Source: the human T2T-CHM13v2.0 reference genome, Homo sapiens. From it: a stretch of 64,000 nt of DNA. Below the pieces are notes generated by a model, which had not been told where the DNA came from, searched no databases, and saw only the letters and a list, made by a program, of their open reading frames with translations. The stretch covers positions 18,592,001-18,656,000 of the forward strand of contig CP086569.2 of the NCBI GenBank assembly GCA_009914755.4, in the 5' to 3' direction. Shown here piece by piece: positions 4,339-7,300 of this stretch. The first letter of the stretch is position 1; every line of letters starts with the position of its first letter. The position numbers and the translations under genes are program-made.

Positions 4339-7300
4339 TCATTGTTCAATTCCTACTTATGAGTGAGAACATGTGCTGTTGGGTTTTTTGTCCTTGCAAT
4401 AGATTGCTGAGAATGAGTAATGGGATGGCTGGGCAAATGGTATTTCTAGATCTAGATCCCTGAGGAATCGCCACACTGACTTCCACAATGGTTGAACTAG
4501 TTTACAGTGCCACAAACAATCTAAAAGTGTTTCTATTTCTCCACATCCTCTCCAGCACCTGTTGTTTCCCGACTTTTTAATAATCACCATTCTAACTGGT
4601 GTAAGATGGTATCTCATTGTGGTTTTGATTTGCATTTCTTGGATGGCCAGTGATGATGAGCATATTTTCATGTGTTTTCTTGGCTGCCTAAATGTCTTCT
4701 TTTGAGAACTGTCTGTTCATATCCTCTGCCCACTTTTGGATGGGGTTGTTTTTTTTTTTTTCTTGTAAATTTGTTTGATTTCATTGTAGATTCTGGATAT
4801 TAGCCCTTTGTGAGATGAGTAGGTTGCAAAAATTTTCTCGTATTCTGTATGTTGCCTGTTCACTCTGATGGTAGTGTCTTTTGCTGTGCAGAAGTTCTTT
4901 AGTTTCATTAGATCCCATTTGTCAATTTTGGCTTTTGTTTCCATTACTTTTGGTGTTTTAGACATGAAGTCCTTGTCCATGCCTATATCCTGAAAGATAA
5001 TGCCTAGGTTTTCTTCTAGGGTTTTTATGGTTTTAAGTCTAACATGTAAGTCTTTAATCCATCTTGAATTAATTTTTGTATAAGGTGTAAAGAAGGGATC
5101 CAGTTTCAGCTTTCTACATATGGCTAGCCAGTTTTCACAGCACCATTTATTAAATAGGGAATCCTTTCCCCATGGCTTCTTTTTGTCAGGTTTGTCAAAG
5201 ATCAGATAGTTGTAGATATGTGGCATTATTACTGAAAGCTCTGTTCTGTTGCATTGGTCTATATCTCTGTTTTGTACCAGTACCAAGCTGTTTTGGTTAC
5301 TGTAGCCTTGTAGTATAGTTTGAAGTCAGGTAGTGTGATGCCTCCAGCTTTGTTCTTTTCACTGAGGATTGTCTTCGCAATGTGGGCTCCTTTTTGGTTC
5401 TGTATGAAATTTAAAGTAGTTTTTTCCAATTCTGTGAAGAAAGTCACTGGTAGCTTGATGGGGATGGCATTGAATCTATAAATTACCTTGGGCAGTATGG
5501 CCATTTTCATGATATTGATTCTTCCTACCCATGAGCATGGAATGTTCTTCCATTTGTTTGTATCCTCTTTTATTTCATTGAGCAGTGGTTTGTATTTCTC
5601 CTTGAAGAGGTTCTTCACATCCCTTGTAAGTTGGATTCCTAGGTATTTTATTATCTTTGAAGAAATTGTGAATGGGAGTTCATTCATGGTTGGCTCTCTG
5701 TTTTTCTGTTATTGGTGTATAATAATTCTTGTGATATTTGCTCATTGATTTTGTATCATGATACGTTGCGGAAGCTGCCTATCAGCTTAAGGAGACTTTG
5801 GGCTGAGACGATGGGGTTTTCTAAATATACAATCATGCCATCTGCTAAAAGGGAGAATTTGACTTCCTCTTTTCCTAATTGAATACCCTTTGCCTTCTTC
5901 TCCTACCTGATTTTCCTGGCCAGAACTTCCAACACTATGTGGAATAGGATTGGTGAGAGAGGTCATCTCTATCTTTTGCCAGCTTTCAAAGGGATTGTTT
6001 CCAATTTTTGTCCATTCAGTATGATTTTGGCTGTCAGTTTGTCATAGATAGCTTTTATTATTTTGAAAGACATCCCATCAATACCTAATTTATTGAGAGT
6101 TTTTTTTATTATTATTATACTTTAAGTTTTAGGGTACATGTGCACATTGTGCAGGTTAGTTACATATGTATACATGTGCCATGCTGGTGCGCTGCACCCA
6201 CTAACTCGTCTTCTAGCATTAGTTATACCTCCCAATGCTATCCCTCCCCCCTCCCCCCACCCCACCACAGTCCCCAGAGTGTGATATTCCCCTTCCTGCA
6301 AATCAAAACCACTATGAGATACCATCTCACACCAGTTAGAATGGCAATCATTAAAAAGTCAGGAAACAACAGGTGCTGGAGAGGATGTGGAGAAATAGGA
6401 ACACTTTTACACTGTTGGTGGGACTGTAAACTAATTCAACCATTGTGGAAGTCAGTGTGGCGATTCCTCATGGATCTAGATCTAGAAATACCATTTGACC
6501 CAGCCATCCCATTACTGGGTATATACCCAAAGGAATATAAATCATGCTGCTATAAAGACACAGGCACACGTATGTTTATTGCAACATTATTCACAATAGC
6601 AAAGACTTGGAACCAACCCAAATGTCCAACAATGATACACTGGATTAAGAAAATGTGGCACATATACACCATGGAATACTATGCAGCCATAAAAAGTGAT
6701 GAGTTCATGTCCTTTGTAGGGACATGGATGAAATTGGAAATCATCATTCTCAGTAAACTATCGCAAGAACAAAAAACCAAACACCGCATATTCTCACTCA
6801 TAGGTGGGAATTGAACAATGATATTGAGAGTTTTTAACAAGAAGCGTTGTTGAATTTTGTCAAAGGCCTTCTCTGCATCTATTAAGATAATCATGTGTTG
6901 TTTGTCTTTGGTTCTGTTTACATGCTGGATTATGTTTATTGATTTTCATATGATGAACCAGCCTTGCATCCGAGAGATGAAGCCCACTTCATCATGGTGG
7001 ATAAGCTTTTTGATGTATTGCTGGATCCAGTTTGCCATATTTTATTGAGGATTTTTGCAACAATGTTCATCAAGGATATGGGTCTAAAATTCTCTTTTTT
7101 TGTTGTGTCTCTGCCAGGCTTTGGTATCAGGATGATGCTGGCCTCATAAAATGAGTTAGGGAGGATTCCTTCTTTTTCTATTGATTGGAATAGTTTCAGA
7201 AGGAATGGTACCAGCTCCTCCTTGTACCTCTGTAGAATTCGTCTGTGAATCCATCTGGTCCTGGGCTTCTTTTTTGTTGGTAAGCTATTTATTATTGCCA

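What the first reader, a model, noticed from the sequence alone, without database searches (positions are those of the whole stretch)
6091..6835. Nested twin-primed (5'-inverted) L1 inserted into ORF2 of an older L1, with a 14-bp target-site duplication
The outer minus-strand L1 reads continuously up to ...cctaatttattgagagttttt at 6104 and resumes at 6822 with tattgagagtttttaacaagaagcg..., which is exactly the next L1 sequence. The tattgagagttttt motif is therefore duplicated on either side of a 717-bp insert. The insert begins with a poly-T run plus the reverse complement of the L1 3'UTR (6105-6298). It then switches abruptly at ~6299 to ORF2 C-terminal sequence in the opposite orientation (6299-6821, ending ...ggtgggaattgaacaatga). 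An inverted 5' segment joined to a 3' segment, with an internal deletion of roughly 250 bp of L1, is the classic signature of twin priming during target-primed reverse transcription. The outcome is L1 within L1 within alpha satellite, three layers deep.
Basis: partly seen in the sequence, partly recalled or inferred. Interest (0 to 1): 0.5.

Follow-up and report, generated by a model that had tools for sequence, protein, structure and literature searches.

The report
Inverted L1 fragment nested in L1
A 717-base fragment of a younger L1 retrotransposon, with its front part flipped, sits inside an older full-length L1 that itself sits in alpha satellite; this is a textbook "twin-priming" insertion and is ordinary.

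Summary
TATTGAGAGTTTTT occurs exactly at 6091-6104 and 6822-6835, bracketing a 717-bp insert (6105-6821). Removing the insert and one repeat copy restores the host L1 ORF2 sequence; two other L1 copies in the window carry this site once. The insert has two parts. 6105-6298 is antisense L1 3'UTR ending in a very short A tail. 6299-6821 is sense ORF2, covering residues 1105-1275 of human ORF2p, the stop codon and 7 nt more. The inferred first-strand nick is TTTTT/AA, the L1 endonuclease consensus. The two halves meet at a 2-nt microhomology (TG).

One detail is wrong. The L1 sequence missing between the two halves is 13 nt (GAACACATGGACA in a colinear in-window L1), not about 250 bp. A 228-bp deletion does exist, but in the host L1 at 4415/4416, unrelated to the insertion.

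That fits the nesting order. The host is a full-length L1 with its own ~13-nt target duplication inside an alpha-satellite monomer.

Verdict: a real, classic 5'-inverted (twin-primed) L1 insertion. About one in five L1 insertions look like this. Low interest.

The parts
6091..6104 (.). Target-site duplication, left copy (TATTGAGAGTTTTT). It adjoins the A-tail end of the insert. It is host L1 ORF2 sequence (minus strand AAAAACTCTCAATA, within ORF2 codons 614-619).
   Evidence: Exact 14/14 repeat. The site is single-copy in L1-B and L1-C. Codon position comes from the ORF2p alignment.
6105..6298 (-). Non-inverted (poly(A)-primed) cDNA segment: the last ~191 nt of the L1 3'UTR plus an A tail of only 3 nt (6105-6107). 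The tail is up to 8 nt if the five T of the duplication are counted. This segment has the same orientation as the host L1.
   Evidence: Matches L1-B 28855-29048 in reverse orientation at 90%.
6297..6298 (.). Inversion junction with 2-nt microhomology (TG). These two bases fit either half: ...CCTTCCTG|TGTCC on the 3'UTR side and ...AAATG|CAAATC on the ORF2 side.
   Evidence: Read from the alignment to L1-B and the host L1.
6299..6821 (+). Inverted (internally primed) cDNA segment. It holds ORF2 codons 1105-1275 (6299-6811), the stop TGA (6812-6814) and 7 nt of 3'UTR (6815-6821). It is sense on the + strand, opposite to the host L1 and to the 3' segment.
   Evidence: phmmer to ORF2p 8uw3 residues 1105-1275, E = 7e-113, 161/171 identical, no stops. 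95.2% identical to L1-B 28319-28841.
6822..6835 (.). Target-site duplication, right copy. It abuts the priming end of the inverted segment, with no filler and no clear microhomology.
6831..6837 (+). Inferred first-strand nick site TTTTT/AA on the + strand, between 6835 and 6836 (6104|6836 in the empty site). This is the L1 endonuclease consensus.
   Evidence: Sequence read directly. Consensus as listed in PMC12016303 and PMC2837659.
4120..10756 (-). Host L1. It is full length and older, and is interrupted at 6105-6835 by the insert plus one duplication copy. It has its own 228-bp internal deletion at 4415/4416.
   Evidence: Colinear with L1-B 22909-29047. The RT-domain translation matches ORF2p 547-715 but carries stops.
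2731..4087 (+). Alpha satellite (171-bp period) flanking the 3' end of the host L1.
10753..19785 (+). Alpha satellite (about 172-bp period, about 47 monomers, 71% matches) flanking the 5' end of the host L1.

Best explanation
A single L1 retrotransposition event by target-primed reverse transcription with twin priming, into the reverse-transcriptase region of an older L1.

Shown by the sequence:
- The target AAAAACTCTCAATA (minus strand, ORF2 codons 614-619 of the host) is duplicated.
- The + strand shows a TTTTT/AA nick site.
- Antisense L1 3'UTR runs rightward on the + strand from the T run (6105-6298).
- On the minus strand, antisense ORF2 runs leftward from the other duplication copy (6821 down to 6299).
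- The two cDNAs meet at a TG microhomology.
- The L1 RNA positions where the first cDNA stops and the second one starts are 13 nt apart.

Inferred mechanism:
1. ORF2p endonuclease nicked the + strand at TTTTT/AA.
2. The T run primed on the poly(A) tail and copied about 190 nt.
3. The minus strand was then cut 14 nt away.
4. Its 3' end (...CTCAATA-3') primed on the same RNA, 13 nt upstream of where the first cDNA had reached, and copied 523 nt.
5. The RNA was removed, the two cDNA 3' ends were joined at the 2-nt microhomology, and the gaps were filled, giving the duplication.

The result is a dead 717-bp fragment with no function.
For: - Exact 14-nt duplication flanking the whole composite.
- Opposite orientation of the two halves, and their L1 coordinates 28319-28841 and 28855-29048 on a colinear in-window L1, hence a 13-nt gap.
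- The ORF2p alignment covers residues 1105-1275.
- The host is colinear across the site, and the site is single-copy in two other L1s.
- The insert is closer to L1HS than the host is: 97.5% against 91.4% over 488 shared columns.
- In published sets, 18-22% of L1 insertions are 5'-inverted. In 46% of these, the end of one cDNA and the start of the other lie within 20 bp. Median duplication length is 13 bp (PMC12016303).
- A captured intermediate with a 12-nt gap between two cDNAs of one mRNA is described in bioRxiv 10.1101/2024.12.14.628481.
Against: - The A tail is very short: 3 nt beyond the duplication, 8 at most.
- There is no clear complementarity between the minus-strand primer end (...CAATA-3') and the L1 RNA at the internal priming site (at best 2 bp, with a terminal mismatch).
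- Twin priming is a model inferred from such structures. A static sequence cannot show the order of events.
- No orthologous empty site and no independent assembly of the junctions could be examined (searches found nothing).
Confidence: 0.9

Rival explanations
1. Two RNA templates ('dual priming' or template choice in trans): the two nicked target strands were each extended on a different L1 RNA molecule, then joined.
For: Priming of both strands on different mRNAs has been proposed (PMC2837659) and observed at rearrangement junctions (bioRxiv 10.1101/2024.12.14.628481). The final structure would look the same.
Against: The second cDNA starts only 13 nt upstream of where the first stops. With an independent RNA, the chance of a start within +/-13 nt on a 6-kb element is about 0.5% (my arithmetic). 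Both halves have similar identity to L1HS. The inverted half starts internally, not on a poly(A) tail.
Confidence: 0.04
2. An ordinary 5'-truncated L1 insertion of about 730 bp, whose 5' 536 bp was inverted later by a DNA rearrangement that lost 13 bp.
For: The end product is formally identical, and sequence alone cannot exclude it.
Against: One inversion breakpoint would have to fall exactly at the boundary between the insert and its duplication (6821/6822). No inverted repeats lie at the two breakpoints; the only inverted pairs in 5900-7000 lie elsewhere. 5' inversions are a common direct outcome of L1 integration.
Confidence: 0.03
3. Assembly artefact: a chimeric join of L1 reads in a repeat-rich pericentromeric region.
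For: The region is L1 within L1 within satellite, which is hard to assemble. The junction sequences were not found in other collections, though those hold microbial and metagenomic data.
Against: A misjoin would not produce an exact 14-nt duplication of the host site, a TTTTT/AA nick site and near-contiguous L1 coordinates all at once.
Confidence: 0.02

Closest known systems
Twin-primed (5'-inverted) L1 insertions (Ostertag and Kazazian 2001, Genome Res 11:2059; cited through PMC12016303 and PMC2837659)
   Same: - A single target-site duplication (14 nt; published median 13).
- An endonuclease-type nick site.
- The A-tailed sense segment is joined to an inverted upstream segment.
- A small gap (13 nt) separates the L1 coordinates of the two cDNAs.
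- Short microhomology at the internal junction.
- Segment lengths of 194 and 523 bp, the same order as the published medians (germline 571 and 751 bp, somatic 253 and 292 bp).
   Different: Nothing of substance. The A tail is unusually short (3-8 nt against a median of about 34-39 in new insertions), which is not unusual for an old copy. No microhomology is visible at the internal priming site.
Nested L1-in-L1 insertions, and L1 insertions in pericentromeric monomeric alpha satellite
   Same: New L1 insertions tend to land in existing L1 sequence (stated in PMC12016303). The host L1 lies in a diverged alpha-satellite array and has its own target duplication.
   Different: Nothing notable. This is one more example.
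Twin-priming variants with an inverted poly(A) tail, and dual priming (Meyer et al. 2010, PMC2837659)
   Same: Both target strands are used as primers.
   Different: Those loci have a 5' poly(T) and an extremely short or absent non-inverted part. Here the non-inverted part is 194 bp of 3'UTR and there is no second homopolymer.

Membership tests
Twin-primed (5'-inverted) L1 insertion | Two adjacent segments of L1 in opposite orientation | tested here: met
   6105-6298 is antisense and 6299-6821 is sense relative to the + strand.
Twin-primed (5'-inverted) L1 insertion | One target-site duplication flanking the whole composite, with none around either half alone | tested here: met
   14/14 exact repeat at 6091-6104 and 6822-6835. 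No other repeat lies at the internal junction.
Twin-primed (5'-inverted) L1 insertion | The non-inverted segment reaches the L1 3' end and a poly(A) tail that abuts the duplication | tested here: met
   The segment reaches ...TATAATAATAATAAA followed by the duplication. The tail is only 3-8 A.
Twin-primed (5'-inverted) L1 insertion | L1 endonuclease consensus (TTTT/A) at the first-strand nick | tested here: met
   TTTTT/AA on the + strand at 6831-6837. Consensus as listed.
Twin-primed (5'-inverted) L1 insertion | The inverted segment comes from L1 sequence just upstream of the non-inverted segment (small deletion or overlap at the inversion point) | tested here: met
   13-nt gap: L1-B 28842-28854, GAACACATGGACA. 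46% of published cases lie within 20 bp.
Twin-primed (5'-inverted) L1 insertion | Microhomology at the internal priming site and at the cDNA-cDNA junction | tested here: inconclusive
   2 nt (TG) at the cDNA-cDNA junction 6297-6298. None convincing at 6821/6822.
Twin-primed (5'-inverted) L1 insertion | Both segments derive from the same L1 RNA (same subfamily) | tested here: inconclusive
No curated L1PA consensus library was available.
Twin-primed (5'-inverted) L1 insertion | An empty pre-integration site exists | tested here: met
   Met by proxy only. Paralogous L1 copies (26852-26865, 48330-48343) carry the site once, and the host is colinear with them. An orthologous empty site could not be examined.
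Primate L1 (L1PA lineage) | Encodes ORF2p closely related to human LINE-1 ORF2p, with the L1PA-type 3'UTR end | tested here: met
   161/171 residues identical to PDB human ORF2p 1105-1275.
Alpha satellite (outer layer) | Tandem array with a period of about 171 bp | tested here: met
   Periods of 171-173 bp at 2731-3961 and 11153-19753. Monomer BLAST coverage reaches 4087 and starts at 10753.

The most novel reading that the evidence does not exclude
The most novel reading still open is a slightly atypical twin-priming event. The first strand would have been primed almost at the very start of the poly(A) tail, or on the A-rich AATAATAATAAA end of the 3'UTR, because the tail is only 3-8 nt. The second strand would have been primed without base-pairing between the target overhang and the RNA. 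That would hint that ORF2p can start internal priming without complementarity. A single old copy, whose tail may simply have shrunk, cannot establish this.
Probability: 0.1. Interest if true: 0.15.

Novelty: already known. Interest (0 to 1): 0.08.

Why it matters
It matters little in itself. It is a clean teaching example of a 5'-inverted L1 insertion with all junctions readable.

The nesting gives a relative time order that could help date this pericentromeric segment:
- the alpha-satellite monomers are oldest;
- the full-length host L1 is next (91% identical to L1HS);
- the insert is youngest (97.5% identical to L1HS).

The corrected gap of 13 nt, instead of ~250 bp, puts the event in the most common class of twin-priming products.

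Tried and rejected
- I searched for the two junction sequences in public collections to get independent support for the assembly. The inversion-junction 26-mer gave 0 matches in metagenome contigs. The 5'-junction 31-mer gave 0 matches in genome contigs. These are microbial and metagenomic collections, so the result is uninformative.
- An Rfam scan of the whole window at gathering thresholds found nothing.
- The original twin-priming paper (PMC311219) is not in the held library. Its content is cited through PMC12016303 and PMC2837659.
The alignment to a colinear L1 shows 13 nt missing. The only deletion of about that size (228 bp) is in the host L1 at 4415/4416.
- I considered complementarity between the TCTCA of the target overhang and the UGAGA just after the ORF2 stop as the internal priming register. 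I rejected it because it predicts a junction 6 nt further upstream than observed.
- I did not assign L1PA subfamilies. Its coding part translates exactly to the PDB ORF2p residues 1105-1275; its 3'UTR part is unverified.

Full report
**1. The observation.**
The + strand reads ...cctaattTATTGAGAGTTTTT up to 6104. TATTGAGAGTTTTT recurs at 6822-6835, followed by aacaagaagcg.... The repeat finder reports this as an exact 14-nt direct repeat with 731-nt spacing. It is the only direct repeat of 14 nt or more in 5900-7000. With up to one mismatch the 14-mer has four matches in the window, against 0.08 expected from shuffles. The other two matches (26852-26865 on the minus strand, 48330-48343 on the plus strand) are the same ORF2 site in two other L1 copies, where it occurs once.

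**2. What the insert is.**
The window contains a full-length, colinear L1 on the + strand (here L1-B, 22900-29053). It serves as an internal reference that does not depend on memory.
- 6299-6821 matches L1-B 28319-28841 in forward orientation (95.2%, no gaps).
- 6105-6298 matches L1-B 29048-28855 in reverse orientation (90.2%).
- Translated, 6299-6811 gives 171 residues without a stop. They align end to end to residues 1105-1275, the C-terminus, of human LINE-1 ORF2p in the PDB (8uw3, 8sxt; E = 7e-113; 161/171 identical).
- The stop codon is 6812-6814, and 7 nt of 3'UTR follow.
- The reverse complement of 6105-6298 is the last ~190 nt of the L1 3'UTR, ending ...CTTAAAGTATAATAATAATAAA.

So the two halves are opposite in orientation, and the switch is at 6298/6299, as reported.

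**3. The correction.**
On L1-B the two halves end and begin at 28841 and 28855. Only 13 nt (GAACACATGGACA) of L1 are absent between them. A deletion of that order (228 bp, L1-B 28537-28764) exists in the host L1 at 4415/4416. It has nothing to do with the insert.

**4. The host.**
The host L1 lies on the minus strand from about 4120 to about 10756. It is colinear with L1-B on both sides of the insert: 4416-6104 matches 28536-26852, and 6822-10750 matches 26865-22909. I removed 6105-6835 and translated the minus strand. This gives ...[26 protein letters not shown]..., which aligns to ORF2p residues 547-715, the reverse-transcriptase domain. The duplicated target AAAAACTCTCAATA falls in codons 614-619. 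The host reading frame carries stops.

**5. Anatomy of the junctions** (read).
- In the empty site the + strand reads GAGAGTTTTT/AACAAG. The junction with the A-tail end of the insert is exactly after the T run. This is the L1 endonuclease consensus TTTT/A (as listed in PMC12016303 and PMC2837659).
- From the T run the + strand continues as antisense 3'UTR, as expected for a first cDNA primed on poly(A).
- The A tail is short: 3 nt beyond the duplication, or 8 if the five T of the duplication are counted.
- On the minus strand the other duplication copy ends ...CTCAATA-3'. It continues directly as antisense ORF2 (6821 down to 6299), as expected for a second cDNA primed by the staggered top-strand end. 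There is no filler and no convincing complementarity at this site.
- The two cDNAs meet at 6297-6298 (TG), two bases that fit either half.

**6. Mechanism.**
The structure is the one the twin-priming model was proposed to explain. It has one duplication around two opposed fragments of one L1, the inverted fragment coming from just upstream of the non-inverted one (model as described in PMC2837659). In a recent long-read survey:
- 18.4% of germline and 21.9% of somatic L1 insertions were 5'-inverted;
- in 46% of these, the end of the non-inverted cDNA and the start of the inverted cDNA lay within 20 bp;
- the median duplication was 13 bp (PMC12016303).

A trapped intermediate with two cDNAs of one mRNA 12 nt apart has been reported (bioRxiv 10.1101/2024.12.14.628481). 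The present case (14-nt duplication, 13-nt gap, halves of 194 and 523 bp) is in the middle of these distributions. The steps of nicking, double priming and joining are inferred. The sequence shows only their product.

**7. Rivals.**
- Two independent insertions, or two RNA templates. The inverted half has no A tail and no duplication of its own. A start within 13 nt of the other half's end has a chance of about 0.5% on a 6-kb element (my arithmetic).
- Inversion after insertion. This needs a breakpoint exactly at the insert boundary, and no inverted repeats lie at the breakpoints.
- A misassembly. This would not create a duplication, a nick consensus and contiguous coordinates together.

None of the three can be formally excluded without an orthologous locus or reads.

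**8. Relative age.**
Its coding part translates exactly to the PDB ORF2p residues 1105-1275; its 3'UTR part is unverified. Against it:
- the two halves of the insert are 97.1% and 96.4% identical;
- over 488 columns shared by all four sequences, the insert is 97.5% identical, L1-B 93.0% and the host 91.4%.

This agrees with the order that the nesting already imposes. The insert has GAG where I recall L1HS-Ta has ACA, so from memory it is an older L1PA element, not L1HS-Ta. The exact subfamily was not determined.

**9. Context.**
Alpha satellite (171-173-bp period, 71-77% matches) covers 2731-4087 and 10753-19785, directly abutting the host L1. The host L1 has its own duplication, CTT[A/T]CTTATTTTC, at 4076-4088 and 10757-10769 inside one alpha monomer. 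"Three layers deep" is therefore correct.

**10. Verdict.**
The feature is real and correctly interpreted apart from the deletion size. It is a well-known kind of event that makes up about a fifth of L1 insertions. Interest is low.

Noticed in passing
window 4076-4119 and 10757-10769: The host L1 has its own target-site duplication, CTT[A/T]CTTATTTTC (13 nt, 1 mismatch), within one alpha-satellite monomer, with a TTTC/A-type nick site. Between its 3' end (4120) and its poly-T (4089-4097) lie 22 nt of non-L1 sequence (aaatgtctaaccccatcacaat, 4098-4119). This may be a very short 3' transduction or use of a downstream polyadenylation site.
   Followed up: partly
window 4415/4416: The host L1 lacks 228 bp of the ORF2 C-terminal region (L1-B 28537-28764). 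The deletion is bounded by a short CATT microhomology.
   Followed up: partly
window 22900-29053, 46404-53244, 60294-64000: Three more L1 elements are present. L1-B is a full-length + strand copy, 93% identical to L1HS at its 3' end. A much older minus-strand L1 is 74-77% identical to L1-B. A + strand L1 (79% identical to L1-B) is cut by the window end.
   Followed up: no
window 1-64000: Rfam at gathering thresholds finds nothing in 64 kb: no Alu-related 7SL matches and no tRNA or snRNA pseudogenes. This fits an AT-rich, L1- and satellite-dominated pericentromeric setting.
   Followed up: no
window 10753-19785: The alpha satellite is monomeric and diverged (about 71% matches between neighbouring monomers, no higher-order repeat detected). 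All monomers have one orientation.
   Followed up: no
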